DNA of 64,000 bases from Candidatus Berkelbacteria bacterium. GTDB lineage: Bacteria; Patescibacteriota; UBA1384; CAILIB01. The notes under the pieces were generated by a model, which did no database searches, was not told where the DNA came from, and saw only the letters and a list, made by a program, of their open reading frames with translations. Both the position numbers and the translations under genes were made by a program. Below, one piece after another: positions 2,035-64,000 of this stretch. Numbering within the stretch: position 1 is the stretch's first letter; every line of letters begins with the position of its first letter. The DNA is taken from NCBI GenBank assembly GCA_043751595.1, contig JAYUZR010000035.1, positions 2,534 through 66,533 of the forward strand. Reading direction: 5' to 3'.

Positions 2035-2430
2035 ATGTCAATTAACTTCCGTTCTGCTTACGCACGTCTTGGCGCTGTCGCCGTTGGTGCTAGCCTAGCT
2101 ACTCTTCCAATGGCTGCTCACGCTGCTGTTGGTGCGCTCACCCCTGCTGGTGGCGATATCAATACATCAAGCACCCTAGATGAGCAGATCAGCTCCATCT
2201 CTGGTAGCGTTATTGATACCGTTCTTCTTATCGCTGGCGTCCTAGCTGTTATCTACCTGCTTTACTCTGGTATTCAGTACATCACTTCAGCTGGTAACCC
2301 AGAAAAAGCTAAGGGCGCTCGTCAGGGTATCATCAACGCCGTTATCGGTATCGTTGTTATCATTGCTGCGTTCTTCATCGTTCGTCTTGCAGTTGGTAGC
2401 GGTAACCAAATCAACAGCCTTAACAACTAG
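2035..2430 (+). CDS. T4SS pilin-like protein (VirB2/TrbC-type), paralog 4
   Basis: RBS AAAGGAGG 6 nt upstream of the ATG. Signal peptide ...AAHAAVG. Core YLLYSGIQYITSAGNPEKAKGARQGIINAVIGIVVII. Followed by a terminator. Confidence 0.55.
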   Translation: MSINFRSAYARLGAVAVGASLATLPMAAHAAVGALTPAGGDINTSSTLDEQISSISGSVIDTVLLIAGVLAVIYLLYSGIQYITSAGNPEKAKGARQGIINAVIGIVVIIAAFFIVRLAVGSGNQINSLNN

Positions 2431-2452
2431 TCCCCTAGTTCTAAGCCTGCAA

Positions 2453-2480
2453 AGACCCGGCCTTGGCCGGGTCTTTTTTA
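2453..2480. terminator. Rho-independent terminator, usable in both directions
   Basis: GACCCGGCC-ttgg-CCGGGTC hairpin followed by TTTTTT on the plus strand. It ends the pilin cluster and, on the minus strand, the FtsB-like gene. Confidence 0.6.
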
Positions 2481-2504
2481 ATTAGCGATCTTTCTTTAAT
2501 TTTT

Positions 2505-2568
2505 AGTGATTATTTCTTCCGCGTATCCGAGGCGTACGCCGAGGGCTTAGCGGGAGAAATAAATCACT
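2505..2568. repeat. 64-nt structured element R1 (conserved loop, covarying stems); paired with the copy at 3839..3902
   Basis: Sequence: GTGATTA-tttcttccgc-GTATCCGaGGCGTacGCcGAGGgCTTAG-cgggagaaa-TAaATCAC. The outer stem and 27-nt loop match R2, while the 11-12 bp middle stem has a completely different but still complementary sequence. It lies between the stop of the minus-strand gene 2564..2989 and its terminator. Confidence 0.5.
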
Positions 2569-2989
2569 TACCTTGGATATATCTCCACCACTGCTCCCAG
2601 TTAGGCAGGTTGCGCCTTGGATCGCGGGCAGCCTGAGCGGCAGCTAGCGCCTGGTGGGCCGCCTGCTGCTTGCCTACGCTTGATTCTGGCAGTGCATAGA
2701 CCTTCTCTTCTGGCCGATGTAGTAACGCCACCCTCCGTAACTCCTTTTCTTTAAAGGAGTCGCTTTGGTAATACACCAGCAATGCCTTTAGGCGGTCGCG
2801 CTCACTCTCTAGGTTGGTGAGCTTAGTTTCCAAATCAGTAATCTGCTGCCTGCTGGCTACCGCCGATTTAAGTGAATTCGTGGTAACCACACCTAAATAG
2901 CACACGGCAGCAATCAGCCAGAGGGCCGTGGTTGAACGCTGTGTCCAGCGAAGAATACGTTGCAGAAGAATACGCAAGAGATGCACCAA
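2564..2989 (-). CDS. FtsB/DivIC-like septum formation initiator (single TM plus coiled coil)
   Basis: N-terminal TM (ALWLIAAVCYLGVVTT), then a heptad coiled coil QITDLETKLTNLESERDRLKALL. Size and layout are typical of FtsB/DivIC. Confidence 0.4.
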   Translation of the reverse strand: MVHLLRILLQRILRWTQRSTTALWLIAAVCYLGVVTTNSLKSAVASRQQITDLETKLTNLESERDRLKALLVYYQSDSFKEKELRRVALLHRPEEKVYALPESSVGKQQAAHQALAAAQAARDPRRNLPNWEQWWRYIQGK

Positions 2990-3004
2990 CCAAGTATAGC
3001 AAAC

Positions 3005-3532
3005 TTACTTACTACCAAATAATTGAACAGTAATAAGAGTACGCTCCCCCGATGCATCTACAGACCACACACAAGCGTATCCGACTTCTTTATATTTAGG
3101 AGAAAGAATATTGGCACGGTGACCAGGACTCTTCATCCAACCAGTGGTGATGCCTTCAGGAGTTTTGAATCCCTTAGCCAGGTTCTCCCCTGCGCTACGG
3201 TATGAATACCCTGCCTCCTCAATAAATGACCAAGGAGTCTTACCATCTAGAGGACGAAAGTGCGCCCAATAACCACGAGTAATCATATCGTGCGCCTTAG
3301 CCTGAGCGGCCTGATTTAGTTGCTCATTAATAACAAGCTCAGGAAGGCCGGTCGCTACGCGCTGTGCGTTGGTAAGGATGAGAAGCTCGGCTGGAGAATA
3401 CGCAATTTGCTCAGCAGAAAGCTCGGTTGCTGAAACGCCATTTGCAGCCAAAGCAGTATCGGCCCCAAGCGGAAGAATGGCGCGAATTACTACTACGAGG
3501 ATAAAAAGGCTTTTTGCCCAAAAAGTATTCAT
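3005..3532 (-). CDS. Secreted CAP/SCP/PR-1 domain protein (YkwD-like)
   Basis: Signal peptide, then the CAP motifs GENLA, GWMKSPGHRANIL and YKEVGYAC. Confidence 0.7.
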   Translation of the reverse strand: MNTFWAKSLFILVVVIRAILPLGADTALAANGVSATELSAEQIAYSPAELLILTNAQRVATGLPELVINEQLNQAAQAKAHDMITRGYWAHFRPLDGKTPWSFIEEAGYSYRSAGENLAKGFKTPEGITTGWMKSPGHRANILSPKYKEVGYACVWSVDASGERTLITVQLFGSK

Positions 3533-3798
3533 TTGTGTTGTTTTTGTTTCTCTTTTTGAGATGCACTAAGTATACGACAGAACAGCAGTAATTTCAATCA
3601 GTATTGAAGTCTTTAAGATTACGGACACGTCAGTTTTACGCTCCAGCGATTACTATACGATAGTGTATTACCTTTCCCGTATCAGCTGTTCGGTTTGTTT
3701 TACCACTACTTTTCCACAGGTGGATAACCTCTCAATAAGTGGGCGGTCAGCCCCGGTGGGGCCAGTGACCACATAGCCCTCTCGTAACTTGAGACACT

Positions 3799-3830
3799 AA
3801 AAAAAGCCCCTCCTTTCGGAAGGGCTTTTG
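3799..3830 (-). terminator. Rho-independent terminator of pyk
   Basis: On the minus strand the hairpin AGCCCTTCC-gaaa-GGAGGGGCT is followed by TTTTTTT. Confidence 0.6.
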
Positions 3831-3838
3831 CCTCTGTC

Positions 3839-3902
3839 GGTGATTATTGTACTGGCGTATCCGGAGCGTCAGCGACGGTCTTAGCCAGTACAATAGATCA
3901 CC
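3839..3902. repeat. 64-nt structured element R2 (second copy of the R1 family)
   Basis: Sequence: GTGATTA-ttgtactggc-GTATCCGgaGCGTcaGCgacGGtCTTAG-ccagtacaa-TAgATCAC. A perfect 11-bp middle stem (ATTGTACTGGC/GCCAGTACAAT). Same placement as R1: 4 nt after the pyk stop and before the pyk terminator. Confidence 0.5.
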
Positions 3903-3905
3903 CTC

Positions 3906-4955
3906 TTAGAAGTAGTTCGGGCGGTGATACATAGCTTCTTCAGCGCGCTTAACAATCTTTACCATGGTGGCCAGAGAGTTAATTGGGTCAATACCAGCAG
4001 CTGTTTCTTCGGAAAGCATCACTGCATCGCTACCAGCAAATACTGCGTTCGCCACATCTGAAACTTCAGCGCGGGTTGGGCGAGTATTTTTGGTGATAGA
4101 AAGCATCATCTGAGTAGCGGTGATGACTGCCTTCTTAGACCAGCGGCATCGCTCGGTAATCTCGCGCTGCAGTACTGGAATATCTTCCATAGGCATCTCG
4201 ATACCAAGATCGCCACGGGCAATCATCACGATATCGGAACCATCGATAATCTCCTGAAGGTTAGCAATCGCGCGGCGACGCTCTACCTTAGAAATAAGCT
4301 TAATATCGCGACTGCCGATCATGGCACGTACTTCATCAAGCTCTTTTCGACTATCAACAAAGGAAAGTGCAATCGCATCTACTCCTGGGGCCGTATTAAG
4401 CAAGAAATCAAGATCACGATAATCTTTTTCGGTTAGCGCAGGAGAGCTCAGGTTGGTATCGGGAACATTAATACTCTTGCGTGACATCAAGATACCACCA
4501 GAGGTGATTCGAACAGCGATACGGTGACCCTTCACCCAACTAACAATGCCCTCAATGGCACCATCCATGAAGGTAATATATTCCCCTGCTTTTACATCAT
4601 TATGCAACGTGGAGTCGTTGATCAAAATCTCATCGGAAGATTCTGGCTCACCAACGTTCATGTAGAACGTATATTCCTTATCGGTATCAAGAGGAATGCC
4701 GGCATCTGGCAAAATACCAACGCGGATATTTGGACCCTGAAGATCGGCCTGCATCTTGGTTTCAGCACCATGCTTAGTCTTAATCTCTTGCAGCATGTTG
4801 TAACGAGCGGTGTACTCATCGTACTGGCAGTGCGCAAAGTTATTGCGCAGCATATCGGAGCCGTTGAGAATCAGTCCTTCGATAATTTCGGGACTAGCAC
4901 TAGCAGGACCCACCGTAGTAACAAACTTAGTCCAGGTGCCTGAAAATTGGTTCAT
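3906..4955 (-). CDS. pyk: Pyruvate kinase (short form without the C-terminal regulatory domain)
   Basis: Motifs MIARGDLGIE, TATQMMLS, TRAEVSDVANAV and GSDAVMLSEETA. The start was taken at MNQFSGTWTKF rather than the longer ORF. About 350 aa, so it lacks the allosteric C-terminal domain. Confidence 0.85.
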   Translation of the reverse strand: MNQFSGTWTKFVTTVGPASASPEIIEGLILNGSDMLRNNFAHCQYDEYTARYNMLQEIKTKHGAETKMQADLQGPNIRVGILPDAGIPLDTDKEYTFYMNVGEPESSDEILINDSTLHNDVKAGEYITFMDGAIEGIVSWVKGHRIAVRITSGGILMSRKSINVPDTNLSSPALTEKDYRDLDFLLNTAPGVDAIALSFVDSRKELDEVRAMIGSRDIKLISKVERRRAIANLQEIIDGSDIVMIARGDLGIEMPMEDIPVLQREITERCRWSKKAVITATQMMLSITKNTRPTRAEVSDVANAVFAGSDAVMLSEETAAGIDPINSLATMVKIVKRAEEAMYHRPNYF

Positions 4956-11488: not shown

Positions 11489-12568
11489 ATGCGTACGATT
11501 GGCGTTCTCAATAGTGGTGGCGATGCCGCCGGACTCAATACGGTAATTGCTGCTCTCGTAACCACTGGTGCGCCACTTGGGTATCGCTTCCTCGGATTCG
11601 AAAAGGGCTGGGAGGGCATTCTTGATCCCGTCATGTATCAAGAACTCACTCCTCAAAGCGTAAAAAGAATTGCTCACCTAGGTGGCACCATCCTTCGTAC
11701 TGCTAATAAGGGTCGTTTTGCTGGTAAATCTGGTGGACCAAACCAGGTTAACAGCATCCCTGAAGAAATCCTCGATATGGCCGTCCGCAATCTTAAGGCA
11801 CTCGATGTCGAAGGCCTCATTGTTATCGGTGGCGATGGCACCTTAAGTGCTGCTATGCAGCTTTCAGAGCATGGCGTTCGTATTATCGGTGTTCCAAAAA
11901 CTATCGATAACGATCTCCCTTCCACCGATCAAACCTTTGGCTTTAGCACTGCTGTACAGGTTGCTGTAGATGCCATCGATCGCCTACACACCACAGCCGA
12001 AAGCCACGAGCGTGTCATTTTTGTAGAATGCATGGGTCGCTTTGCTGGCTGGATTGCACTCTACGCAGCCCTGGCTGGTGGGGCTGATTGCGTCATTGTT
12101 CCGGAAGTCTCTTGTAGTAGCGAAGAAATCCTAACGTTCCTGCGTAAGCGCCGAAATGAAGGATACCATCATAGTATCGTAGTCGTTGCCGAAGGCGTTG
12201 CCCTAGAAGACGGCGAACACGTTGGCCGCGATACAGGCACTCCAGAACTTACCCTCGGTGGTATTTCTGAGCAAATAATGCAAACCATAAATAAAATGGC
12301 TCCTGGAGAGTTTGAGATGCGCAATACCGTGCTTGGCCACACCCAGCGCGGAGGCACCCCCAACGCAGAAGACCGTATTCTTGCCAAAAAGTATGCCGTT
12401 GCCGCTATGCATGCGTATCACAACGGAGAAAGCGGCCAGATGGTTGCGCTTCGCGGAAAAGATATTATTCTGCAGCCCATTTCCGATGCTGGCGGGCCTC
12501 TCCGCGGGGTTACCCCAGATTGCATCGAATACCAAACTGCACGGGCACTCGGCATTGTTATTAGGTAG
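11489..12568 (+). CDS. pfkA: 6-phosphofructokinase
   Basis: Motifs GVLNSGGDAAGLN, GGDGTLSAA, PKTIDNDL, MGRFAGW and GHTQRGGTPN. Confidence 0.85.
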   Translation: MRTIGVLNSGGDAAGLNTVIAALVTTGAPLGYRFLGFEKGWEGILDPVMYQELTPQSVKRIAHLGGTILRTANKGRFAGKSGGPNQVNSIPEEILDMAVRNLKALDVEGLIVIGGDGTLSAAMQLSEHGVRIIGVPKTIDNDLPSTDQTFGFSTAVQVAVDAIDRLHTTAESHERVIFVECMGRFAGWIALYAALAGGADCVIVPEVSCSSEEILTFLRKRRNEGYHHSIVVVAEGVALEDGEHVGRDTGTPELTLGGISEQIMQTINKMAPGEFEMRNTVLGHTQRGGTPNAEDRILAKKYAVAAMHAYHNGESGQMVALRGKDIILQPISDAGGPLRGVTPDCIEYQTARALGIVIR

Positions 12569-16547: not shown

Positions 16548-16814
16548 TTACTTATACACACCCTGCCGGTGGCCAACATCGAGAACTTCTACCACAAGTT
16601 GTTTCTGCACTATCTGATAAATAATTCTATACGGCCAAACCCGCAGTGAATACTTTCCCTCAAGCTCGCCCTTAAGTGCTTTACCCGCGTAGGGGGAGTG
16701 GGCCAGCGATGCTAGTGCCTCCAAAACTCGAGCACGGTAGTTTAGTGGAATCTTGGCAAGCTCCTTGGCGGCAGTGCGGGATACTATAACTGAGAAATCA
16801 GACCCCAAAGCCAT
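16548..16814 (-). CDS. Type II toxin, RelE/ParE family
   Basis: Small basic protein ending ...YSLRVWPYRIIYQIVQKQLVVEVLDVGHRQ. Overlaps the upstream antitoxin gene by 17 nt. Confidence 0.55.
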   Translation of the reverse strand: MALGSDFSVIVSRTAAKELAKIPLNYRARVLEALASLAHSPYAGKALKGELEGKYSLRVWPYRIIYQIVQKQLVVEVLDVGHRQGVYK

Positions 16815-17076
16815 TGGAAACAAACTGATCAAGCGAGATGGTATCTCCGTTTGCAATATCCTTTTCCGCAGCCCGTATTCTTTTCATCGCGTGAGCATCA
16901 CTCAAAATCTCCATCGTCTCCTGTAGAGATTCAAGTTCTTCAGCATTAATAAGCACCGCCTTCGGCTTTCCGTTAACCGTTAAAGTGTAGCGCGCACCAG
17001 TTTTTTCGACACTTTCAATTACCTCAGCAAACTTTTGCCGAGCCTCAGTGGTAGAAATAGTAGTTCGCACATCCAT
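16798..17076 (-). CDS. Type II antitoxin, Phd/YefM family
   Basis: N-terminus MDVRTTISTTEARQKFAEVIESV..YTLTVNGKPKAVLI fits the YefM fold. Confidence 0.55.
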   Translation of the reverse strand: MDVRTTISTTEARQKFAEVIESVEKTGARYTLTVNGKPKAVLINAEELESLQETMEILSDAHAMKRIRAAEKDIANGDTISLDQFVSNGFGV

Positions 17077-17095
17077 GCCAAGAACTTACACTATG

Positions 17096-17109
17096 TACAT
17101 AATTATGTA
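17096..17109. promoter_or_regulatory. Perfect 14-bp palindrome TACATAATTATGTA between two divergent TA operons (candidate shared operator)
   Basis: Read directly from the sequence. It sits in an 86-bp AT-rich divergent intergenic region. Confidence 0.35.
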
Positions 17110-17128
17110 AATAAAAACATCCTAGTTA

Positions 17129-17156
17129 TTTACAAAAAAGGGAATATGTATATAAT
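17129..17156 (+). promoter_or_regulatory. Sigma70-like promoter (TTTACA, 16 nt, TATAAT) only 6 nt upstream of the antitoxin ATG, so the mRNA is probably leaderless
   Basis: -35 at 17129..17134 and -10 at 17151..17156. The ATG is at 17163 with no SD sequence. Confidence 0.35.
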
Positions 17157-17162
17157 GCATAC

Positions 17163-17414
17163 ATGCATTCACTCCAATACACAATACGAAATATTCCCCC
17201 TGCCGTAGATCAGGTTATTCGCAAGCGCGCCAAGCAAACAGGAGCCTCATTTAACCAAACCGTTGTCGATCTTCTTACCCTCCAAGCTTTGGGTACTACT
17301 ACACCAAAAACGGAGGAGTCTTTTGATTGGCTCTTCGATCAAGCCAAATCAGACCCTGGATTTGATCAAGCCATCTTAGAGCTATCTCAAGTAGATAAAG
17401 ACCTGTGGAACTAG
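17163..17414 (+). CDS. Type II antitoxin (VapB-like) partnered with a PIN-domain toxin
   Basis: Small acidic protein. Its stop overlaps the start of the downstream PIN gene. Confidence 0.45.
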   Translation: MHSLQYTIRNIPPAVDQVIRKRAKQTGASFNQTVVDLLTLQALGTTTPKTEESFDWLFDQAKSDPGFDQAILELSQVDKDLWN

Positions 17415-17815
17415 CTTCTAGCTACATCCTCGACACAAGCGCCTATTCTGCCTTCTTTAAGGGTGATCGACGCCTGCGTCCGTGGTTTACACACACCCAT
17501 AAGATCTTCCTACCCTTAGTGGTTATCGGAGAATTGCGTGCAGGCTTTGCAAATGGGAATAGGACTAGCGAGAATGAAACTCTTTTGGGCAGGTTTTTAG
17601 ACACCGCCAATGTAGACACCCTCCCACTTAGTCTTTCCACAACCAAGTTCTTCGCCGATACCTTTTTACAAGTAAAAAAGTCTGGGAAAGCATTAGGTAC
17701 AAATGACCTTTGGATTGCGGCTCTCGCCAAGGAACATAGCCTGCCGATTCTTACGCTTGATGCTGATTTTCAAAGAATTAAAGGGGTAGAATTACTCGCT
17801 ATCCCCCAAACGTAA
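17405..17815 (+). CDS. vapC: PIN-domain toxin VapC
   Basis: YILDTSAY near the N-terminus, an acidic TLDADF, and NDLWIAALA, the PIN catalytic residues. Confidence 0.6.
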   Translation: MELASSYILDTSAYSAFFKGDRRLRPWFTHTHKIFLPLVVIGELRAGFANGNRTSENETLLGRFLDTANVDTLPLSLSTTKFFADTFLQVKKSGKALGTNDLWIAALAKEHSLPILTLDADFQRIKGVELLAIPQT

Positions 17816-22464: not shown

Positions 22465-22806
22465 CTACACCTCTTCAATAAGGACTCTTACAAAGCTTGC
22501 CGCTTTAGCCACAAGTTTGCTCGGGGCTTTTTCAATAAACACCATTTTGCGAGCTCCGCTATCAACACTACGTACGTGAATAGGAAGTAACACTCCCTGC
22601 GTCTGACAGCCTTCTAGAGTAATTTCGTAGGGAAGGTTTTTTACCTTAGAAGTAATCGGACAAATAACCGCAAGCCCGGTATGGCGAGTAAAGACCTTGG
22701 GTGATAGCACCAGCGCCGGCCTTCTTCCGGATTGCTCATGCCCCACGCGAGGGTCGAGCAGTAGCCAGACAATATCTCCCCTCTCAGGAATGTAGAGCTC
22801 ATTCAT
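22465..22806 (-). CDS. mazF: MazF/PemK family endoribonuclease toxin
   Basis: ERGDIVWLLLDPRVGHEQSGRRPALVLSP matches the MazF signature (GDLIWVDFDPTKGSEQAGHRPAVVLSP). Confidence 0.7.
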   Translation of the reverse strand: MNELYIPERGDIVWLLLDPRVGHEQSGRRPALVLSPKVFTRHTGLAVICPITSKVKNLPYEITLEGCQTQGVLLPIHVRSVDSGARKMVFIEKAPSKLVAKAASFVRVLIEEV

Positions 22807-23050
22807 AGTTTTCGGCGCCAAGATCGAGCCCCCAATCCAGTTCGCCGGCAACAAGTTCAGGCGTAACGCCCGCTAACATATCGCCAAGAGAAGGCACATC
22901 CTCCTTGAGTGGACTAAGGATAACCGAGCCCCCCTTTACCGTAATCTCGAGGCGCTGATTAAGCTGCAGGTGAGCCGCAAGGAGCACTTGCTTGGGTAGG
23001 CGAATACCGGCGCTATTACCCCAAGATTGTAGGGTTTGGATGATGGTCAT
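22799..23050 (-). CDS. mazE: MazE-like antitoxin (SpoVT/AbrB swapped-hairpin domain)
   Basis: SWGNSAGIRLPKQVL motif. 8-nt overlap with mazF. Confidence 0.55.
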   Translation of the reverse strand: MTIIQTLQSWGNSAGIRLPKQVLLAAHLQLNQRLEITVKGGSVILSPLKEDVPSLGDMLAGVTPELVAGELDWGLDLGAENYE

Positions 23051-48007: not shown

Positions 48008-48475
48008 ATGCAGATTACACGCACCCCTGATGGGTCCGTACGCCTTGAGAGTAAGCCAACTTGGCTTACTCTCGGCGTTTCTGTCACCCTTCACGACCAA
48101 GATCTTCATGGGCCTGGTGAATACGATATCACCGGCATTCAGTGCCAGCAGTTGTACCTTGGCAAAGGAAAGATCAGCATCATTCGTCTCGAAGATCTGA
48201 TTATTTCTTACGTTGAAGGTTACGACACCGCTATCGCTAAGGCCGAGGGAGTATCCAACACCCATCTCCTCGTTGTTCGTACCGATGCTCTTACCAGTAT
48301 CGATCAGCTACGTGCCCTTATTAAGGAGCTCGACCCTGGATACGTACTCTTAACTGGTAGTAACCACAAAGAGTTTGAAGAGGCGGCTGGTCTTTCTCTT
48401 CAGACTGGTTCTACCCTTAAGGTAACCAATGCTAGCCTTCCTCAAGAAGGCTGCCTTCTGGCTACTCTCGCGTAG
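48008..48475 (+). CDS. Hypothetical protein
   Basis: A 155-aa ORF tightly packed between rpsA and the DHH gene. Confidence 0.35.
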   Translation: MQITRTPDGSVRLESKPTWLTLGVSVTLHDQDLHGPGEYDITGIQCQQLYLGKGKISIIRLEDLIISYVEGYDTAIAKAEGVSNTHLLVVRTDALTSIDQLRALIKELDPGYVLLTGSNHKEFEEAAGLSLQTGSTLKVTNASLPQEGCLLATLA

Positions 48476-56311: not shown

Positions 56312-57355
56312 ATGGCTGACTCCAGAAATACCACCATCCTCCTGACTGGAGCCATTGCTACCGTTTTTTTGATGAGCTTCCTGGCATCAGCAAGTATTGC
56401 TGGCACCAGAATCGGCTCCAGTAGCTCGCAGAGTGACGGCCCCAACCAGTTGGGTGCCACCAACACCAGCGCAGCTGTCCCTACCGATCCCCGCATCGCC
56501 AGCCTTACTCAGGCAATCACTCGCTTGGCAGACCCTAAAGCAACAGCTGCCGATAAAGCCTCTTCACTTACCTCAACCTCCAATAGCCTACTCGAGTTAA
56601 AAAAAGGTCTTGCTACTAATACAAAACTGACTCAAGAAAAAAAGACTGAGTACGGCACTAAAATTGATGAAGCCCTCACCCTGGTAAACCAGGCAAGTGC
56701 AGCTGCCAAGGCTGGTAATGGGGGAGCACAGTCTGCTGAGATCATGAAAAAGCTTCTCGCCAAGCTTGATGAACTCCCCGATAAAGACCGCAAGGCAATT
56801 TATGGAATTGAAACTGGTGGTGCCGCTGCGGCAGTAGCCTTTGCTATTGCGGCCGTAAATGCCAACGGCAATGGAGCCGCTGGTGGTATTTACCCTTACT
56901 CACACACTCGCCCTATCAACCCAACAGCATCCAACCCAGCCCAACGCGGCTTCGATTGCTCTGGCTTTGTGGGTTGGGTATTAAGCTCAGTCGGAGTTAT
57001 CACCCTCACCAATGGCCAGGTAGATACTCAGTTACTCTACGATAAAGCGGAGGCTGGCAAAGAGATAACTTCAGTACGTAAGGGCAAGCTCAGCTATTCT
57101 GATGCTCAGAATATGTACAAGTCTGGAGAGCTTAAACCTGGTGATATTCTCTTGAGTGGAATGTATAAGGGGCAGCGGGTTGAAGGAGTTTCTCACGTTG
57201 TACTCTTTTTGGGTGAAGTTGATGGAAAATTAATGGTGGCTGAATCTCAAGACCGAGACGGCAAACACGGCGTTCACTTTACTACCCTAGAAACACGCCT
57301 AAGTGGCGGAAGAGCTGGTGTAAGCCTACTAGCTAGACCCAACTATGCTGGATAA
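56312..57355 (+). CDS. NlpC/P60 family cell-wall peptidase, membrane-anchored
   Basis: TM near the N-terminus. Catalytic GFDCSGFVGWV (Cys) and VSHVVLFLG (His). Confidence 0.65.
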   Translation: MADSRNTTILLTGAIATVFLMSFLASASIAGTRIGSSSSQSDGPNQLGATNTSAAVPTDPRIASLTQAITRLADPKATAADKASSLTSTSNSLLELKKGLATNTKLTQEKKTEYGTKIDEALTLVNQASAAAKAGNGGAQSAEIMKKLLAKLDELPDKDRKAIYGIETGGAAAAVAFAIAAVNANGNGAAGGIYPYSHTRPINPTASNPAQRGFDCSGFVGWVLSSVGVITLTNGQVDTQLLYDKAEAGKEITSVRKGKLSYSDAQNMYKSGELKPGDILLSGMYKGQRVEGVSHVVLFLGEVDGKLMVAESQDRDGKHGVHFTTLETRLSGGRAGVSLLARPNYAG

Positions 57356-60300
57356 CCTGCGTAGTCGCCTAGTCGGGTTATCGTTAGCTGCACTTCTTAT
57401 TCAGCCAATTTTCCCATTGGTGGCGCAGGCAGCAGATGAGCAGACCGCAGCACAAACCATTCGTACCTGTTCAGAGCAAGTTGCAGACTACTACGAACGT
57501 GGCATTGATCCCGAGGGACTAGGGGAAGCTGTAGATACTGTGGCCTTTGAAGCTAATGATCCAGATAATCCACCAACCCCCGAGGAGTTGGCCGAGTACG
57601 AAGACTTCCAGAACATTACCGAGTTTGATAACGGTGAGGGAGTTAACGTCTTCAACCAAATTATCGACCTAAACGTTGTAAAAAATACCCCTGGTGCCCT
57701 CCCTGAAACCATCTCCCTCATCACCAGCGACGAATACGTAGCCAGCGTCATTGCCCTCTATGGTGACAATATTACTCACTACAAAACCAGTTTCTACGAT
57801 CTTATTGTGGTCTGTAAGGCATCGAGCGCGGTAATTGATGAAAGAATCTTCGACCCTTACGTTCCGATCACTCCAGACTTCTTAAGCCTGAGCGAGGCCA
57901 TCCAGCTTTCTTCTGCCAAGATTGCCTTTGCCCGAGCAGAGGATAAATACTACCTCCTAGGAGAACACTGCGAAGGTGGCCTTATTAGTACGCCAGCTAG
58001 CCAGTGGACCGCCGACACCAACCCCTGCCCAGGTTTTAAGCCAGAGGACGATATTATCCGAACCGGAAAATCACTAGGTAGATGGGATGCGCCCAAGGTC
58101 GATCCGCGTGTTCTCTATACCCTTCTCTACTTAGTTACTCCAACCGAAGAAGGTGGCGCTGGTCGTGAGTACATTAAAGTAGCTCGCTTAGTAGACCCCA
58201 TTTCAAGCAATATTCTTACCAACGCCGTTGCCAGCCCTTCGCCAGAAGCTAGTCCTTCTCCATCTCCTTCCGCCAGCCCTTCGCCATCCGCCTCGCCCAG
58301 CGACGAGCTAAAGTTTTCTAAAAGTAGTCAAGATGATACCGCCAAACAACCCGATCTTACTGGGTATCAAATTAATCCGGACGATGAACCTCACTTACCT
58401 ACCAAGGTAGCCAGCGCGGTTTCTATTAGTGAGATTGATAAAATCCGCTCGACTATTAAGATCACCAAGTATATTGGTATTTTTAGAAAGAAGTCGCGCG
58501 AGTATAACTACTACGCCCCATACCCAGTAAAGGTAGCCTGGCAAACTGAGGCTGGCTCGGCTGCTCAATCTATCCCAACCTTTGCCCAACCCCAGCTCAA
58601 CCTTTTGGCTAATGGCCGCTTCTTGGCGAACCAAGGCATCGTTGAGATGCTCAACCAGAACGGACTTGGCGATCTTAAGCTTGATGCCAATAGTGTAGAA
58701 ATTAATTCCTTTGAGGACGTTGGTCGCTTGGTGGGAACGTCGCTAATCGAGCAATTACTAGGCACCCCTAATAACTCACTCAAGGGCTGGGATCTTACCT
58801 CTACCCTCGAGCAAATTGGTCGTGCTTACGCTGAGCAGCAAATCGGCCTTACCGCCGGGTCATTAGCAGAGGGTGACGATTTCCAGTCACTGGTTCGAAA
58901 TATTGGCCGTAGAACGATCGAGAAAAACTTAAACCTACCAGAACGCTCCTTGGCCGATGCCGGTGGGGATTCTTCGGTGTTACTTGAGAACCTTGGTAAG
59001 CGCTGGCTAGAGACCGAAGTACTTAAAATTAGCCCCGGATCCCTCGACGGTACTTCCGAGTTTCCAACCACCAAGGTCTCAGACCTCTTAGCCAGGGTGG
59101 GCGAGGGAAGAATAGAGGCGGTTATGAAGCTCCCGCGCCAGAGTATGCGCAAGAAGATCTACAGCGATAGTGATCCACAAAAAAGCTTACGCGATAGCAG
59201 TGTTAAGGCTCGCCTTACCTTCCCAGATGTTAAAGGGAGTCCTAAAGACGAAGATTATCTAACCGCCGATTATCTTAACTCGCTCCTAAGCCTTTCCTAC
59301 GTTGAATACAACGGTAGCGGGGCAAATATGTACGGCTTCACCAAAAATGACCTGCGTGACGCGGTTATTAACTTCTTTAAGGCTGGCAGCAACCAGAATG
59401 CCGTTGATACTTTTAAGCAGATTGTAGGAAGTAGAGTACTCGAGACATCGCTTGGAAGCTTCCAGTTGGGTGGAACGAGCACTCCAGTAACGAAGGAAAA
59501 GAAGCGTACGGTTGATATTACCAATTTAGGGCTTTTCACTTATGCAAAGGAGAAGGATGATAAGGGTAATCCTATCGCTTACGATTCCAACACCAAGTTC
59601 TATCCGTATTCTTGGTATCAAAAAATCCCATTTGGCGATCACGATACATTGGGCCAAGGAACACTTTGCGGCGCACTAGGGGAAGAGCCTTCAAACGATA
59701 GACTTCAGTTTGAAACCCCTGGAGGTGACAAATATACCGTGAAGTGTAATGAGCGAGATGAAGTAGCAAGTGATACCGCAGATACCAGCTTCTTTAAAGA
59801 TTTGCAGGAGTATCTTCTTTCGCCAGATCTTGTTACTCAAACCGAGTTTAGACCAGATGAAAGCATTCATAAGGCACCAGTATATGCCGACTACCTTAAG
59901 GCAACTCCCGATAACGAATCCTTCGCCAAGCGCAGGTACAACCACGACTACGTTGCCTACATTAATGACCCAAGGCTCAATGTTGCCGTACCTCGCAACG
60001 GAGTAACTGGCGCAGATAGAGCAAGTCTTAGCGCCAAGCCAGTTGCCAGCGCAAGCGATCTCAAGCCAGACGATGCCGCTGGCCTCGCGGCACTTTCTGC
60101 TATCGCACCAATTTCTAGTGCACGAGCCTTTATTAATCAGACTCCTGAGTTAGCTAATAGCGCGCCACTCCAGGCAACGCTTAATATGATTAGCGCACTC
60201 TATAGTACGCAGCAGTCGGTTGTGGTTAATGGGAAAACCGTTCCTCTCTTTGATCTCACCCCCGTAATGAATCAAGCAGGGGAAGAGCTACAGTATTCGC

Positions 60301-63300
60301 TTGCACTTCGCCTTAACGCCCTTCGTGCCCACCCAAGCTATAACGGAAACAAAGAGCAGTACCTTAGGGAGTATAATGATATTTCTATACCTACCGCCAC
60401 TTCCAGCAACCCGTATAAGGGCTGGGATTTCCTATTAAGCGATCTTAAGGGCCAAGTAGCCTGCTTCCAGCGAAGTGGAGTTTGGCAGTATTCAGATGCC
60501 GCCCAAGGATTTGGCTGCGTTGCTGGTACAACTAAAAAGGTTATTAGCGCCGATGCCTCAACCGCATCCAACCAGGTAATCACCTACATCGATCGCCTTC
60601 GCGAGCAGGTTACCAGTCTTTCCGATGCCCTAAGTTTTATGCTGGGAACTGGCGGCAACTGCCAGGGTGATGATGCCTCGAGTGAAGAGCTTTGTGGTCA
60701 GAGTGGAGCCAGTCAGGCAGTGGAGATTTACGGCTCCCTATACGAAACCGATGATAATGGAAGGATCGATACCGCTAAAATTGCTTACTCCAAAGACCCA
60801 CTGCGTGATTTGTTTATGCCTGTCATCAAAAAGCAGAATGGCAAAGCTAAAGGAGTAGACCGTGGAGCTGTAGTACAAATTAACGGGGCTGTTACCAACG
60901 GAAGTATCAACACTGCACTCGTGGCGAGCACCCAAAAATCGTACTGGAAACAAATTGGCCTCCAGGTAGCGAGTAAGCAATTTACCAATGGTAATAGCCA
61001 GCGCCAGACCATGGCCACCACCCTACAAACAGGGTTTGGCGACTTTACCGCTGCCCTCAAGAACCTCGGTGCCTTCTCGATGGATGATAGCAAGTTGAAG
61101 GCAGCCGGCATGACTATTGAAGACTTTGCTCGTATCTTCCAGCTTGGATTAGAGGACGATGTCTTTGAGCGATACGGCCGAGAAGAATTGCTGCGGGCCT
61201 TATGGACCAAGACCGGCGCCACGGCAAGTATTAAAAAATCGACTGAGTATCAGAGCTTCATGAAAGAGCTGAACGACGTTGCGCAAGATGTCGGCTTCTA
61301 TCGAACCCGAATTGTCCGACTGACTGCGAATGATGGCGTCGTGGCGCAACTATCAGATACCCTCAACACCTTAAGCACCAAACTTAAGGCCGATGGCAAA
61401 ATGACTGATGCCGAGTTTGATGCAATGAAGGCCGAGTACAACCAATCTCAGGCTGTTGCCGCTATTCAGCGAAGTGTCGATCCATCCCAGCGAGGTGCCC
61501 TCTCGCAACTAGAAGCAACTGCTAAGGGTTTGCAAACCGCTGGTCGCGATCACGAGCGTCCACTTCGTCGCATCTATCAACAGCTCCTCACTATTAAGAC
61601 TCGCTTCCCAACTGTGGGCACCGAGCCAAGCTATGGTGGATTGATGACAAAAGCAGAAGATCTTGCCGAAGAGGGGGTCCAGCTTGTTCAGGAAATTGCC
61701 GCCGGCAAGCAACTACCTCGTCCGGTATACGACGGAACCCTAAGTGGTGGAATTGATAAAAAAGCTGGTGGCCTAGCCGAGAAGAGTTATTCCAATAACC
61801 AGTGCTTCCCTCAGGGCAACCTGATTCAAGTATTAATGCGGGATAAGAAGCTTCTTGATACCACCAGCATTGATCAAACCGGATCTTTCAAGGCGCAACT
61901 TGCCAGCTTTGCCATCTACACCGGAGCCTGCCGGCTCGATACCGCCCTTGGCATGCCAAAGGGGAGTGTCTTTGGTTGGTATAGTCTGGGCAAAAAAGCC
62001 TTCCCACCCAAGAAAGATCTTGCCGCCAAGCCACCAATTGATCCAAACCCAACGCTCACCAACCCAGATGGAAGCCCAGCTCCTGGTGTACCTAGTTGGA
62101 AGGCTGGTGAAATGGGAACAGAAAATCTTGCCCTTGCAGCTGGTATTGGTGATGCCATCGCCAACAACGACACCACGGTTAGCTACACCAATATTCACAC
62201 CCAAAGCGCGACCAAGATTAAGGCACTAATGGACCGTGGGAAAAATGTCTTAATTGCTTCAGTAACCCTGCAACTCGCCAAGCAGTTCCCAGGAATTGAA
62301 GCTGCTCTGCGCAAAGCCAACCTTAGCCTGGACGATGTATCTCACATATTGCAGGGAGACCTGCGGCCACTGGCTCTTAAGTTGGGTGGGCCTGTTCTTG
62401 ATAAAGCGCTCGATCTCCCCAAGGGCACTGGATATGCCTTAATGTTCCCAACCTGCCGATCCGAAACCGGGGCCACAACTGCCTGTATCAACGACCCTAA
62501 CCACCCTGGAACTGACCCTGATAATATCCGCCTCCAGACCATGGCTCGGGTTGGCTTTAAAAAGATTGGGGCCCAGATTCCCGATTTCCCGGCAGACTTC
62601 GATCTACTTAGCGGAGGTAACCTAGCCGCTTCGTGGGGTACTTCTCGCATTAGTAGTGTCCTCGGCCTTGAGAGTAATAGCTTTGGCGGAGTACTTGCCA
62701 GCAAGACCAGCCTTACCACCTCACAGCTCAATACTATTTCTAGCGTCGTATCAGGCAACTGTCCAAAATCACTCGACGCAACCAGCCAGCCAAACCAATG
62801 TTCGGCCGAGGCTACTGCCAGAATTGCACAGGCGTTTAGGGTAGAAAATCCTAAAAAGTCGAATTACATCGAGTTAAGTAAGAAGCTTACAGCAAGCCTC
62901 AAGAACACCACTCCTCTAGCAAAGGGAGCGTTAGCGACTATTACTGATAGTGACCCCGTAAACCAAGCACTCGACTGGTACCTCTACCATACCAGCCTTG
63001 GTATGTTCCAAACCCAACTTGCCCCTGATCTTATTACCAAAGAAGATACCATTGCCGCAGGTAAAAATATCGCCAGCGCAGCCTACTATTATTACCTATA
63101 CGAACCCTACGTAGCACCTGCTCAAAAAGGTCTTATTTCCAGGCTCTGGGATGCCGTGGCCGATCCAAGCCTGCATGTAGGAATTGCCGATCCTAAAGAG
63201 AGAATCCGAGCTGCCCGCCGTATTATTGTTCAAAGCTTTTACTCATCCGATACCTTTAGAGACATCACCCCCGATCAACTAGATCAGGCAACACCACCAG

Positions 63301-64000
63301 GTGGAGGTAAGCCAACCCTGACGGCCTTTGTAAATGAGAATACCGCATCCGCAACGGGTGTAGTACTTGCTTTGCGCAACCAAGTAAAGCAGACCACTAC
63401 CGCCCTTCGCTTAAGTGATAGCGACAAAGAACTAAAAGACGGCTCTGCTGTATTCTACAAGTTCCTTCGCTCTGAAATTGACGGAGAGAAAATTTCCACC
63501 AACATTGGTCAGATTGACGCCGTTGGTGGAATTATCACCAATCTTTTCGATAAATACATTGGTGGAAACGATGCACCCACTTGGCTTAAAGAGGGGAATG
63601 ATATCTTTAAAACATTCTCTAAGGGGGTTTGTGGAAAAGATATTAATATTGGCCAGTTTATCTCAAGCTCCATGGTAAATGGCGGCGATGGCTCCTGCTT
63701 CAGTAATAATATTGGCACCGCCAATATGAGCAATGTGCTCTATGGATCTGGATTTACCCAGTTTAGAGACGTTCTCTTTGATAAGTTTCTTGCCCGCACC
63801 TTTAGCGCACAGCTAGAGCAGGAGATAGGACTTGATAAAGGAACCTTCCGCAGTATTGTCACCACTCCTTCTAATGGGCGACAGATCTTACTTAGTCAGG
63901 GTGTACGCCACTTTGCCGACCAGCTCTTCGGCAGAAACACTAGTAGCACCTGCTACATCACCGAGGGAGATAGTACTTCTTGTGCAGAATCAAAGTTACG
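57345..64000 (+). CDS. Giant secreted or surface protein (more than 2218 aa inside the window, 3' end beyond it); last gene seen in the T4SS-like operon
   Basis: ATG at 57345 overlaps the NlpC/P60 stop (ATGCTGGATAA). Signal peptide MLDNLRSRLVGLSLAALLIQPIFPLVAQA. An SPSPEASPSPSPSASPSPSASPS linker around aa 290. The frame was checked codon by codon at 57345-57760, 58200, 60000, 62001 and 63900 with no stop. No competing ORF of 60 aa or more appears on the plus strand in the 6.6 kb. Confidence 0.65.
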   Translation, partial: MLDNLRSRLVGLSLAALLIQPIFPLVAQAADEQTAAQTIRTCSEQVADYYERGIDPEGLGEAVDTVAFEANDPDNPPTPEELAEYEDFQNITEFDNGEGVNVFNQIIDLNVVKNTPGALPETISLITSDEYVASVIALYGDNITHYKTSFYDLIVVCKASSAVIDERIFDPYVPITPDFLSLSEAIQLSSAKIAFARAEDKYYLLGEHCEGGLISTPASQWTADTNPCPGFKPEDDIIRTGKSLGRWDAPKVDPRVLYTLLYLVTPTEEGGAGREYIKVARLVDPISSNILTNAVASPSPEASPSPSPSASPSPSASPSDELKFSKSSQDDTAKQPDLTGYQINPDDEPHLPTKVASAVSISEIDKIRSTIKITKYIGIFRKKSREYNYYAPYPVKVAWQTEAGSAAQSIPTFAQPQLNLLANGRFLANQGIVEMLNQNGLGDLKLDANSVEINSFEDVGRLVGTSLIEQLLGTPNNSLKGWDLTSTLEQIGRAYAEQQIGLTAGSLAEGDDFQSLVRNIGRRTIEKNLNLPERSLADAGGDSSVLLENLGKRWLETEVLKISPGSLDGTSEFPTTKVSDLLARVGEGRIEAVMKLPRQSMRKKIYSDSDPQKSLRDSSVKARLTFPDVKGSPKDEDYLTADYLNSLLSLSYVEYNGSGANMYGFTKNDLRDAVINFFKAGSNQNAVDTFKQIVGSRVLETSLGSFQLGGTSTPVTKEKKRTVDITNLGLFTYAKEKDDKGNPIAYDSNTKFYPYSWYQKIPFGDHDTLGQGTLCGALGEEPSNDRLQFETPGGDKYTVKCNERDEVASDTADTSFFKDLQEYLLSPDLVTQTEFRPDESIHKAPVYADYLKATPDNESFAKRRYNHDYVAYINDPRLNVAVPRNGVTGADRASLSAKPVASASDLKPDDAAGLAALSAIAPISSARAFINQTPELANSAPLQATLNMISALYSTQQSVVVNGKTVPLFDLTPVMNQAGEELQYSLALRLNALRAHPSYNGNKEQYLREYNDISIPTATSSNPYKGWDFLLSDLKGQVACFQRSGVWQYSDAAQGFGCVAGTTKKVISADASTASNQVITYIDRLREQVTSLSDALSFMLGTGGNCQGDDASSEELCGQSGASQAVEIYGSLYETDDNGRIDTAKIAYSKDPLRDLFMPVIKKQNGKAKGVDRGAVVQINGAVTNGSINTALVASTQKSYWKQIGLQVASKQFTNGNSQRQTMATTLQTGFGDFTAALKNLGAFSMDDSKLKAAGMTIEDFARIFQLGLEDDVFERYGREELLRALWTKTGATASIKKSTEYQSFMKELNDVAQDVGFYRTRIVRLTANDGVVAQLSDTLNTLSTKLKADGKMTDAEFDAMKAEYNQSQAVAAIQRSVDPSQRGALSQLEATAKGLQTAGRDHERPLRRIYQQLLTIKTRFPTVGTEPSYGGLMTKAEDLAEEGVQLVQEIAAGKQLPRPVYDGTLSGGIDKKAGGLAEKSYSNNQCFPQGNLIQVLMRDKKLLDTTSIDQTGSFKAQLASFAIYTGACRLDTALGMPKGSVFGWYSLGKKAFPPKKDLAAKPPIDPNPTLTNPDGSPAPGVPSWKAGEMGTENLALAAGIGDAIANNDTTVSYTNIHTQSATKIKALMDRGKNVLIASVTLQLAKQFPGIEAALRKANLSLDDVSHILQGDLRPLALKLGGPVLDKALDLPKGTGYALMFPTCRSETGATTACINDPNHPGTDPDNIRLQTMARVGFKKIGAQIPDFPADFDLLSGGNLAASWGTSRISSVLGLESNSFGGVLASKTSLTTSQLNTISSVVSGNCPKSLDATSQPNQCSAEATARIAQAFRVENPKKSNYIELSKKLTASLKNTTPLAKGALATITDSDPVNQALDWYLYHTSLGMFQTQLAPDLITKEDTIAAGKNIASAAYYYYLYEPYVAPAQKGLISRLWDAVADPSLHVGIADPKERIRAARRIIVQSFYSSDTFRDITPDQLDQATPPGGGKPTLTAFVNENTASATGVVLALRNQVKQTTTALRLSDSDKELKDGSAVFYKFLRSEIDGEKISTNIGQIDAVGGIITNLFDKYIGGNDAPTWLKEGNDIFKTFSKGVCGKDINIGQFISSSMVNGGDGSCFSNNIGTANMSNVLYGSGFTQFRDVLFDKFLARTFSAQLEQEIGLDKGTFRSIVTTPSNGRQILLSQGVRHFADQLFGRNTSSTCYITEGDSTSCAESKL

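What the first reader, a model, noticed from the sequence alone, without database searches (positions are those of the whole stretch)
2505..3902. Two copies of a 64-nt element with conserved loop and outer stem but fully covarying middle stem, each between a gene stop and its terminator
R1 (2505..2568) and R2 (3839..3902) share GTGATTA ... GTATCCG(R)GCGT..GC..G.CTTAG ... TA(A/G)ATCAC. The 11-12 bp stem between these conserved blocks is completely different in sequence yet perfectly complementary in both copies: tatttcttccgc/gcgggagaaata in R1 and attgtactggc/gccagtacaat in R2. Each copy has a one-nucleotide bulge at the same position of the outer stem. Full compensatory change across a whole helix, with a conserved 27-nt apical region, is the signature of a selected structure rather than a decaying duplicate. 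Both copies lie immediately 3' of a minus-strand stop codon (FtsB-like; pyk) and 5' of that gene's intrinsic terminator, so both would sit in 3'UTRs. They could be a 3'UTR regulatory or protein-binding RNA, a small RNA source, or a miniature mobile or recombination element.
Basis: seen in the sequence. Interest (0 to 1): 0.6.

Follow-up and report, generated by a model that had tools for sequence, protein, structure and literature searches.

The report
Two-copy 61-nt hairpin insertion element
Two diverged copies of a small hairpin-forming DNA element were inserted right at the ends of two neighbouring housekeeping genes in an uncultured Patescibacteria genome; the structure is real, but it looks like a rare, lineage-specific insertion element and not a conserved regulatory RNA.

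Summary
42 of 64 positions are identical. Each has an 18-bp stem with the same bulged A. Six contiguous stem pairs differ: five by changes on both sides, one to G·U.

Corrections: only 6 of the "11-12" middle pairs vary. The wobble pairs and tandem G·A pairs work only on the + strand, which is antisense to pyk and DivIC.

New result: both copies are insertions. The nearest relative (pyk 80% aa; overlapping contigs L018 and L158) has the same gene order with both sites empty.
- R1: removing 61 nt restores AAG-TAA. R1 sits between the last sense codon and the old stop of the DivIC gene and supplies a new TGA.
- R2 lies 5 nt after the pyk TAA.
- No target-site duplication.

I found no further copy in ~75 kb of this genome or ~195 kb of relatives. 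A strict loop pattern found none in GTDB genomes or JGI metagenomes, and looser patterns none in IMG/VR. There is no Rfam match and no transposase or integrase in the window.

Best reading: a low-copy, lineage-restricted palindromic insertion element, REP/MITE-like in kind. A conserved 3'UTR regulator is disfavoured. Two relatives carry their own hairpin families with conserved loops and unrelated stems.

The parts
2505..2568 (+). It includes 1 nt on the 5' side and 2 nt on the 3' side of flanking DNA that extend the stem.
   Evidence: model score 88.8 bits.
2506..2566 (+). R1 inserted core, 61 nt (GTGATTA...AAATCA; on the minus strand TGATTT...ATCAC). Removing it restores ...GGT AAG TAA.
   Evidence: The relative L158 reads GGG AAG TAA followed directly by its terminator. 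The 3' limit on the minus strand could instead lie 21 nt further on, at 2485 (alternative alignment).
2515..2520 (+). R1 variable helix, 5' arm TCTTCC. It pairs with 2552-2557 (GGGAGA), including one T·G wobble.
2552..2557 (+). R1 variable helix, 3' arm GGGAGA.
2521..2551 (+). R1 conserved apical domain. It consists of the closing GC/GC pairs, a 4x5 internal loop (GUAU / GCUUA), and a 7-layer apical stem with tandem G·A pairs and a GUAC loop.
   Evidence: The tandem G·A pairing is read directly from the sequence.
2564..2566 (-). TGA stop codon of the DivIC/FtsB-like ORF, supplied by the element's arm.
   Evidence: The protein C-terminus ...QGK is the same as in the relative's P0122.
2503..2505 (-). 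Former TAA stop codon of the DivIC-like gene, now displaced downstream of the element.
   Evidence: inference from the empty site.
3839..3902 (+). R2, whole 64-nt hairpin.
   Evidence: model score 89.9 bits.
3840..3900 (+). R2 inserted core, about 61 nt (limits uncertain by 1-2 nt). It lies 5 nt (GAGGG) after the pyk TAA and 10 nt before the pyk terminator stem.
   Evidence: The relative L018 reads TAAGAGGG|GGAGAG...terminator with no element.
3849..3854 (+). R2 variable helix, 5' arm GTACTG. It pairs with 3886-3891 (CAGTAC).
3886..3891 (+). R2 variable helix, 3' arm CAGTAC.
3855..3885 (+). R2 conserved apical domain. It has the same architecture as in R1, with the tandem G·A pairs shifted by one layer and a GUCA loop.
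3906..3908 (-). pyk TAA stop codon.
3802..3829 (-). pyk intrinsic terminator, present with or without the element.
   Evidence: The equivalent terminator is present in L018.
2451..2476 (+). Terminator of the convergent T4SS-pilin gene. On the DivIC strand its U-tract is weak.

Best explanation
R1 and R2 are two diverged copies of a lineage-restricted palindromic insertion element of about 61 nt.

**What happened (shown).** Each copy entered as a complete hairpin unit, without target-site duplication, into the short spacer between the end of a minus-strand gene and the next terminator.
- R1 lies exactly between the last sense codon (AAG) and the old TAA of the DivIC/FtsB-like gene. Its own TGA now ends the ORF, and the protein is unchanged.
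- R2 lies 5 nt after the pyk TAA.

**How it most likely works (inferred).** The element is, or was, copied as a folded single strand that a structure-specific protein recognises. The protein would read the foot of the stem, with its bulged A, and the structured 27-nt apical domain. The 6-bp middle helix is a spacer that only has to pair. This would explain why foot and apex are conserved while the middle helix is completely substituted yet still complementary.

Once inserted, the element is carried passively in, or antisense to, the 3' ends of the pyk and DivIC transcripts. Any effect on mRNA 3' stability or termination would be secondary.

**Status of each step.**
- Shown: the hairpins, the block-wise conservation, the insertion status, the lack of duplication, and the absence elsewhere.
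- Inferred: mobility as such, the single-strand mechanism, and the protein partner.
For: **Structure and conservation.** The hairpin and block-wise conservation are real.

**Empty sites.** The nearest relative is represented by L018 and L158, two overlapping contigs from one JGI sample, with pyk 80% and DivIC 58% aa identity. It has the gene order pyk, CAP, DivIC, pilin with both sites empty. Removing 2506-2566 restores AAG TAA. Removing 3840-3900 gives flanks that are colinear with L018.

**No duplication and no altered protein.** No target-site duplication is seen at either junction. DivIC homologues end in the same ...QGK.

**Absent from more distant relatives.** Four syntenic relatives (L159, L160, L236, L237) lack the element at both gene ends.

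**Not a known RNA and not a terminator.** There is no Rfam family and no U-tract.

**Folds as DNA.** Both strands fold as DNA, z -3.2 to -7.4.

**Precedent in the clade.** Two relatives hold their own multi-copy intergenic hairpin families (L236: 4-5 copies in 12 kb; L159: 3 copies in 18 kb). Repeated hairpin elements are therefore a feature of this clade.
Against: **Very few copies.** Only two copies are seen, 1.3 kb apart. There are none in the other ~73 kb of this genome. The strict loop pattern finds none in GTDB species genomes or JGI metagenomes. Neither it nor looser patterns find any in IMG/VR.

**No partner enzyme.** No transposase, integrase or reverse transcriptase is encoded in the window.

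**No shared target.** The two insertion points share only a G at position -1 on the minus strand.

**Old copies.** The copies are 34% diverged, so transposition was not recent. Conservation of the blocks after insertion would then need selection on the inserted copies themselves, which points toward a host function.

**Direction of change.** Presence in this genome and absence in one relative could formally be two precise deletions in the relative.
Confidence: 0.5

Rival explanations
1. A cis-acting structured RNA in the 3'UTRs of the pyk and DivIC mRNAs (minus strand). It would act as a 3'-end stabiliser, an RNase III or protein-binding site, or a device that slows ribosome release, and it was acquired by insertion and then kept by selection.
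For: - Both copies lie 0-5 nt from a stop codon and upstream of a terminator hairpin.
- The helix covaries and the blocks are conserved despite 34% divergence.
- The minus strand also folds well: -25.9 and -32.5 kcal/mol, z -4.0 and -5.5.
Against: - The element is absent at both orthologous sites in the nearest relative and in four further syntenic relatives.
- All three wobble pairs become A·C mismatches on the minus strand, and the tandem G·A pairs become C·U. The minus strand is 5-7 kcal/mol weaker.
- pyk and DivIC have no functional link.
- There are only two copies.
Confidence: 0.15
2. A functional RNA read from the + strand. It would be either a small hairpin RNA or a protein-binding module antisense to the 3' ends of pyk and DivIC. 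Its loop (GCGUAUCCGA) might pair with the CAP-gene mRNA that lies between the two copies.
For: - Every non-Watson-Crick pair is G·U or G·A on the + strand, and the + strand folds best.
- The 10-mer GCGTATCCGA of the loop recurs at 3075-3084, antisense to the CAP mRNA (family D4).
Against: - The two copies share no promoter. The flanks are unrelated, and on the + strand each copy sits just downstream of a terminator hairpin.
- The strand bias rests on three wobble pairs (about 1 in 8 by chance).
- A 10-mer match is weak evidence: about 0.05 expected in the 1.3 kb between the copies and about 2 in the whole window (my estimate).
- No relatives carry the element.
Confidence: 0.13
3. A pair of directly repeated DNA recombination or hairpin sites (attC-like or dif-like) that bracket the CAP-DivIC segment as a cassette.
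For: - The copies are in direct orientation and flank a 1.27-kb two-gene unit.
- The layout of foot, 6-bp variable centre and second box, with an extrahelical base, recalls folded attC sites.
- In more distant relatives, extra genes sit at exactly these two junctions.
Against: - The nearest relative has the same pyk-CAP-DivIC-pilin order without either site. Only ~61 nt were gained at each place, not a cassette.
- CAP and DivIC are adjacent in every relative examined.
- No recombinase is encoded in the window.
- The attC R-box consensus is absent.
Confidence: 0.07
4. A functionless palindrome whose apparent covariation is mutational. Template switching within quasi-palindromes copies a change from one arm onto the other, so no selection on structure is needed. 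This mechanism is established knowledge from other bacteria and was not tested here.
For: - The stems are near-perfect.
- The clade is rich in long perfect hairpins with unrelated stems.
- Two sequences give no real statistical power for covariation (control a: 3 of 500 shuffles reach the observed values).
Against: - This does not explain why the loop, which cannot be corrected from another arm, is more conserved than the middle helix.
- It does not explain why differences cluster in blocks (p = 0.009).
- It does not explain why the apical stem keeps a tandem G·A pair while shifting its register.
Confidence: 0.1

Closest known systems
REP / BIME elements (repetitive extragenic palindromes mobilised by RAYT transposases)
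   Same: Both are short extragenic palindromes. They often lie between a stop codon and a terminator, are co-transcribed in 3'UTRs, are thought to be handled as single-strand hairpins, and leave no target-site duplication.
   Different: - REPs are 20-40 nt and usually present in tens to hundreds of copies.
- Most carry a GTAG or CGTC tag at one end (PMC3733652, abstract).
- REPs conserve the stem and not the loop.
- Here the unit is 61 nt with a structured 27-nt apex and ends in GTGAT/ATCAC. Only two copies are seen and no RAYT is in view.
Bacterial MITEs (e.g. Neisseria Correia elements, Rickettsia palindromic elements)
   Same: Both are small non-autonomous insertions that fold into long hairpins, land at gene ends or even inside ORFs, and can donate signals. 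In this case the element donates a stop codon.
   Different: MITEs have terminal inverted repeats matching a parent IS, target-site duplications and many near-identical copies. None of these is seen here.
Integron attC sites
   Same: Both are imperfect hairpins that act strand-specifically, with a conserved foot, an extrahelical base and a sequence-variable but paired interior. Both lie directly after, or overlap, the stop codon of the upstream ORF.
   Different: - There are no RYYYAAC / GTTRRRY core sites.
- The apical region is conserved, not variable.
- There is no integrase and no cassette array.
- The flanking genes are syntenic housekeeping genes, and only the hairpin itself was inserted.
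IS200/IS605-family end hairpins and their gene-less derivatives (PATEs)
   Same: Both are imperfect palindromes with a bulged base, and both insert precisely without duplication. For IS200/IS605 elements, a Y1/HUH transposase recognises the hairpin on single-stranded DNA.
   Different: Those elements have two different subterminal hairpins and insert 3' of a fixed tetra- or pentanucleotide. Here there is a single hairpin, no shared target motif, and no TnpA in the window.
Hairpin families seen here in related Patescibacteria contigs (L236 loop GACGTAATCAGGA; L159 27-28-nt loops with CCCCCGA)
   Same: These are intergenic long-stem hairpins in which the loop is conserved while the stems differ completely between copies. 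In L159 the loop is 27-28 nt with an inner mini-stem, as in R1 and R2.
   Different: - There is no significant sequence similarity to R1 and R2 (p = 0.12).
- The L236 copies are bidirectional terminators with A and T runs.
- The L159 copies sit in 5' or divergent intergenic regions.
- In R1 and R2 the outer stem is also conserved.

Membership tests
REP/BIME | Imperfect palindrome of 20-40 nt. | tested here: not met
   The unit is 61-64 nt, with an 18-bp stem and a structured 27-nt apex.
REP/BIME | GTAG or CGTC tetranucleotide tag at one end (PMC3733652, abstract). | tested here: not met
   The ends are GTGAT and ATCAC. CGTC occurs only inside the R2 loop.
REP/BIME | Many extragenic copies per genome. 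| tested here: inconclusive
   Two copies were found in ~75 kb.
REP/BIME | A RAYT (IS200-like Y1 transposase) gene in the genome. | tested here: inconclusive
   None is present among the genes of the window and its flanks. The whole genome was not seen.
MITE | Target-site duplication flanking the terminal inverted repeats. | tested here: not met
   The junctions are AAG|TGAT...ATCAC|TAA and GAGGG|TGAT...ATCAC|CGA, with no duplication.
MITE | A parent IS with matching terminal repeats, or many near-identical copies. | tested here: inconclusive
   No IS is present in the window. The two copies are only 66% identical.
Integron attC | R''/R' core sites RYYYAAC ... GTTRRRY at the foot of the hairpin. 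| tested here: not met
   The foot is GTGATTA / TAAATCAC.
Integron attC | The site follows a mobile cassette ORF in an array next to intI. | tested here: not met
   The flanking genes are syntenic in six relatives' genomes, only the hairpin was gained, and there is no integrase.
Integron attC | Conserved extrahelical bases in the folded strand. | tested here: inconclusive
   One bulged A is conserved in both copies. attC sites typically have two or three such bases (from my own knowledge).
IS200/IS605-type element (PATE) | Insertion without duplication. | tested here: met
IS200/IS605-type element (PATE) | Insertion 3' of a fixed tetra- or pentanucleotide, and distinct left-end and right-end hairpins. 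| tested here: not met
   The upstream flanks differ (GGTAAG versus AGAGGG on the minus strand; TTTTTA versus CTGTCG on the plus strand). There is a single hairpin only.
Intrinsic terminator | A G+C-rich stem followed by a U-tract. | tested here: not met
   The terminator scan does not call R1 or R2 on either strand, and no T run follows either copy.
Any Rfam RNA family | A match to a curated covariance model. | tested here: not met
   Nothing reaches the gathering score. The best permissive hits are 9-12 bits, to a viral element and a miRNA model.
Conserved cis-regulatory 3'UTR RNA | Presence at the orthologous position in related genomes. | tested here: not met
   Both sites are empty in the nearest relative and in L159, L160, L236 and L237.

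The most novel reading that the evidence does not exclude
R1 and R2, together with the conserved-loop, variable-stem hairpin families in sister genomes (L236, L159), could represent an undescribed class of structure-defined mobile or templated hairpin elements in Patescibacteria. In this class the apical loop would be the recognised or copied module and the stem would be free or programmable. The elements would insert precisely, without duplication, at gene ends. This would be the inverse of REP logic, possibly with a new enzyme or an RNA-templated mechanism behind it.
Probability: 0.12. Interest if true: 0.7.

Novelty: new member of a known kind. Interest (0 to 1): 0.33.

Why it matters
If the reading is right, this is a clean natural example of a hairpin element inserting exactly between the last sense codon and the stop codon of an essential-type gene while supplying a replacement stop. 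It also shows that even very small, streamlined Patescibacteria genomes acquire such elements.

The practical lesson concerns method. With two sequences, a covarying helix plus a conserved loop does not establish a regulatory RNA. Comparing empty and filled sites in a close relative was the decisive test.

The wider observation is that related genomes hold hairpin families with conserved loops and unrelated stems. If systematic, that could point to a new recognition or copying mechanism and deserves a proper survey. On present evidence the element itself is a low-copy curiosity of one species.

Tried and rejected
- **Known RNA family.** Rfam at gathering threshold on the window, and permissive scans on 2400-4000 and on each element alone, found nothing.
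- **More copies in the window.** A covariance model built from the two copies, run with filters off, found only R1 and R2. A regex search for GTGAT...ATCAC hairpins and a 70-nt folding survey added none.
- **More copies in this genome beyond the window, or in other assemblies of the species.** None in L001 or L152-L157.
- **Copies in relatives.** None in L002-L004, L010, L018-L021, L158-L161, L236 or L237.
- **Strict loop pattern in public collections.**
  - GTDB species genomes: 0 hits.
  - JGI metagenomes: 1 hit, a chance match inside a flagellar gene with no hairpin.
- **Four looser patterns in IMG/VR.** Only chance matches without hairpins.
- **BLAST of R2 against plasmids and phages.** Only 18-27-nt chance matches.
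- **Origin of replication between the copies.** The idea came from a DnaA-box-like palindrome at 3710-3727. GC skew is uniformly negative and DnaA boxes are not enriched in the window.
- **An "ORF-less" 57.4-64 kb region.** It is a 2975-aa ORF that runs off the end of the window.
- **Guide-target relation between the variable helix and its flanks.** There are no exact matches (inspection).
- **Homology between the R1/R2 loops and the 27-nt loops of L159.** Not significant (p = 0.12).
- **A third copy at 48198-48209.** The 12-nt match has no hairpin around it.
- **Walking along the genome through paralogous pilins.** The search returned no paralogues. Look-ups are limited to proteins encoded in the window, so the remainder of the 287-kb contig could not be read.
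Full report
**Observation.**

The two elements are real and sit at the stated coordinates. R1 (2505-2568) and R2 (3839-3902) are in direct orientation on the + strand.

- The conserved loop pattern matches only these two places in the 64-kb window, against 0.00 expected from shuffles.
- They align without gaps, with 42 of 64 identical columns.
- Each folds into an 18-bp stem with a single bulged A at the same position (index 57) and a 27-nt apical region. RNA energies are -33.3 and -37.7 kcal/mol on the + strand, z -6.0 and -7.1.
- In the common structure all 22 pairs are standard in both copies. Six pairs change on both sides and two on one side to G·U. Sliding the partner column by 1-3 positions collapses pairing to 30-48%.
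- The 22 differences are clustered into blocks (p = 0.009).

Some details need correcting:

- Only six contiguous pairs (index 11-16 with 48-53) differ, not the whole 11-12 bp.
- One of them in R1 is a T·G wobble.
- The covarying terminal pair is flanking DNA.
- R1 overlaps the DivIC stop codon; it does not follow it.
- The hairpin beside R1 (2451-2476) scores as a terminator only for the convergent pilin gene.

**Anatomy.**

The apical 27 nt are structured, not an open loop. Above the closing GC/GC pairs there is a conserved 4x5 internal loop (GUAU opposite G/U-CUUA). Above that is a seven-layer stem: CC/GG, a tandem G·A pair, GC/GC and a GUNN tetraloop. The tandem G·A pair is shifted by one layer between R1 and R2, so the total length is kept (read).

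All three wobble pairs (R1 U14·G50 and U22·G41; R2 U7·G58) and the G·A pairs exist only on the + strand. On the minus strand they become A·C and C·U, and that strand folds 5-7 kcal/mol less well. The preferred folding strand is therefore antisense to pyk and DivIC. With three wobble pairs this evidence is modest.

**Context.**

The window comes from an uncultured Patescibacteria (CPR) genome.
- It holds many T4SS-pilin genes.
- The nearest GTDB species genome has a pyk only 57% identical.
- The best database relative is 80% identical.

The local gene order on the minus strand is pyk, CAP-domain protein, DivIC/FtsB-like protein, with pilin genes on either side.

No transposase, integrase or reverse transcriptase is encoded anywhere in the window or its immediate flanks.

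**The decisive comparison.**

The 80% relative is represented by two JGI contigs from one sample, L018 and L158. They overlap by about 30 nt and together give the same order: pyk, CAP, DivIC, pilin. Both sites are empty there.

- *pyk site.* After pyk, the relative reads TAA GAGGG GGAGAG... and runs straight into the terminator. The window reads TAA GAGGG [TGATC...ATCAC] CGACAGAGG and then the terminator.
- *DivIC site.* After DivIC, the relative reads GGG AAG TAA and then its terminator. The window reads GGT AAG [TGA TTT...ATCAC] TAA AAA....

Removing 61 nt (2506-2566) restores AAG TAA. R1 therefore sits exactly between the last sense codon and the old stop codon, and its own TGA now ends the ORF. 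The protein still ends ...QGK, like its homologue.

An alternative alignment would add 21 nt of AT-rich DNA to the R1 insertion. The junction next to the coding sequence is the same under either alignment.

Neither junction shows a target-site duplication. The two targets share only a G at position -1 on the minus strand.

Four more distant relatives that share these core genes (L159, L160, L236, L237; pyk 61-64% identical) also lack the element at both gene ends.

**Distribution.**

| Where I looked | Result |
|---|---|
| This window, covariance model with filters off | Only R1 and R2 |
| ~11 kb of extra flanking sequence and other assemblies of the species | No copy |
| ~195 kb from relatives | No copy |
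| 185,579 GTDB species genomes, strict 20-base loop pattern | 0 hits |
| JGI metagenomes, same pattern | 1 chance hit inside a flagellar gene |
| IMG/VR, four looser patterns | Only non-hairpin chance hits |
| Plasmids and phages, BLAST of R2 | Only short chance matches |
| Rfam | No family |

The scans of public collections required the exact conserved loop bases, so a more diverged family is not excluded. The remainder of this genome could not be read with the tools available.

**Interpretation.**

The insertion status, the absence from every relative and the lack of any link between pyk and DivIC argue against a conserved 3'UTR regulator. I favour a low-copy, lineage-restricted palindromic insertion element (confidence about 0.5).

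Its foot, with the bulged base, and its apical domain are under constraint. The most likely reason is that a structure-specific protein recognises the folded single strand, as happens with IS200/IS605 ends, REP/RAYT and attC/IntI. The middle helix only has to pair.

This reading is weakened by four things: the tiny copy number, the absence of a partner enzyme in view, the lack of a shared target motif, and the 34% divergence between the copies. That divergence implies either old insertions that were then kept by selection, or descent from different source copies.

Rivals and my confidence in each:
- a sense-strand 3'UTR structure (0.15);
- a + strand RNA, possibly antisense to the CAP mRNA through the loop 10-mer (0.13);
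- arm-to-arm template switching that mimics covariation (0.10);
- a pair of recombination sites bracketing CAP-DivIC (0.07).

**Comparison with known kinds.**

The element works most like a REP, a MITE or an attC-type hairpin, but it fails the defining tests of each.
- REP: it lacks the GTAG/CGTC tag and the size range.
- MITE: there is no target-site duplication and no parent IS.
- attC: there are no R-box core sites, no integrase and no cassette.
- IS200/IS605: there is no fixed target and only one hairpin.

It is not an intrinsic terminator, because it has no U-tract.

I file it as a new member of the known kind "small palindromic intergenic insertion elements". Its unusual trait is that the apex and foot are conserved while the stem interior is free.

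**Clade context.**

A survey of long hairpins showed that two relatives carry their own families in which the loop is conserved and the stems are unrelated.
- *L236.* It has 4-5 bidirectional terminators in 12 kb, with stems of 15-26 bp that all differ. Three share the loop GA(C/G)GTAATCAGGA and a fourth has the variant GACGTCTAGGGA.
- *L159.* It has three hairpins with 27-28-nt loops containing CCCCCGA and an inner mini-stem that shows a compensatory change.

These families show no significant sequence similarity to R1 and R2. They do suggest that loop-conserved hairpin families recur in this clade, and this is the basis of the more novel reading (probability about 0.12).

**Verdict.**

Interest is moderate to low (0.33), pending a whole-genome and clade-wide search.

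Noticed in passing
L236 3945-4001, 7904-7963, 11173-11237, ~12040-12095 (degenerate copy near 11967-11979): A relative (pyk 64% identical) has 4-5 bidirectional terminator hairpins in 12 kb. Three have the loop GA(C/G)GTAATCAGGA and a fourth has the variant GACGTCTAGGGA. The loops all lie on one strand, and the stems (15-26 bp) are completely unrelated. The TAA stop codons of two genes lie inside the A-run of the hairpins. There is no Rfam match.
   Followed up: partly
L159 10149-10219, 10294-10346, 17598-17665: Three long-stem hairpins have homologous 27-28-nt loops (...CCCCCGA...) and unrelated 13-22-bp stems. An inner 3-bp helix shows a compensatory change (GUC/GAC to GCC/GGC). They lie in 5' or divergent intergenic regions. 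The architecture resembles R1 and R2, but the sequence similarity is not significant.
   Followed up: partly
window 3710-3727: The palindrome TTTTCCACAGGTGGATAA consists of two inverted DnaA-box-like 9-mers. It lies upstream of the CAP-gene promoter-like site (3597-3569). It is conserved in the nearest relative (L018/L158), and L159 has a similar sequence. GC skew shows no origin here, so it is probably an operator for DnaA or another regulator.
   Followed up: partly
window 3075-3084: The 10-mer GCGTATCCGA from the element's loop recurs inside the CAP gene (codons VGYA), between the two copies. A + strand transcript of the element would be antisense to the CAP mRNA there. I estimate about 0.05 such matches by chance in this 1.3-kb interval (family D4).
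   Followed up: no
window 3896-3908 (minus strand): The junction of the pyk stop and R2 reads UAAGAGGGUGAUC, matching 11 of 13 bases of an extended Shine-Dalgarno sequence (UAAGGAGGUGAUC). A UUG follows 7 nt downstream. The purine run predates the insertion, because the relative has GAGGGGGAG at the same place.
   Followed up: no
window 48041-48079: A 17-bp near-perfect hairpin (GAGAGTAAGCCAA-C-TTGGCTTACTCTC, with CGCC/GGCG below it) lies inside the 5' part of a 155-aa ORF that has no Pfam match. The RNA fold is -42.7 kcal/mol, z -6.1.
   Followed up: no
window 2430-2570 and 3530-3905, compared with L159, L160, L236, L237: The two junctions that hold R1 and R2 (DivIC|pilin and pyk|CAP) are the places where more distant relatives carry one to four extra genes, such as a Na+/H+ exchanger, a deacetylase or glycosyltransferases. 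They are therefore synteny breakpoints in this clade.
   Followed up: no
window 16548-17815 and 22465-23050: Three toxin-antitoxin pairs (ParE/Phd, PIN/FitA-like, MazE/PemK) lie within about 6.5 kb of each other in a small genome (coordinates converted from L154).
   Followed up: no
window 57345-64000 and beyond: A 2975-aa ORF with no Pfam match starts at 57345 and runs off the end of the window. It follows a T4SS-like gene cluster and an NlpC/P60 gene. This explains why the ORF list looks empty in this region.
   Followed up: yes
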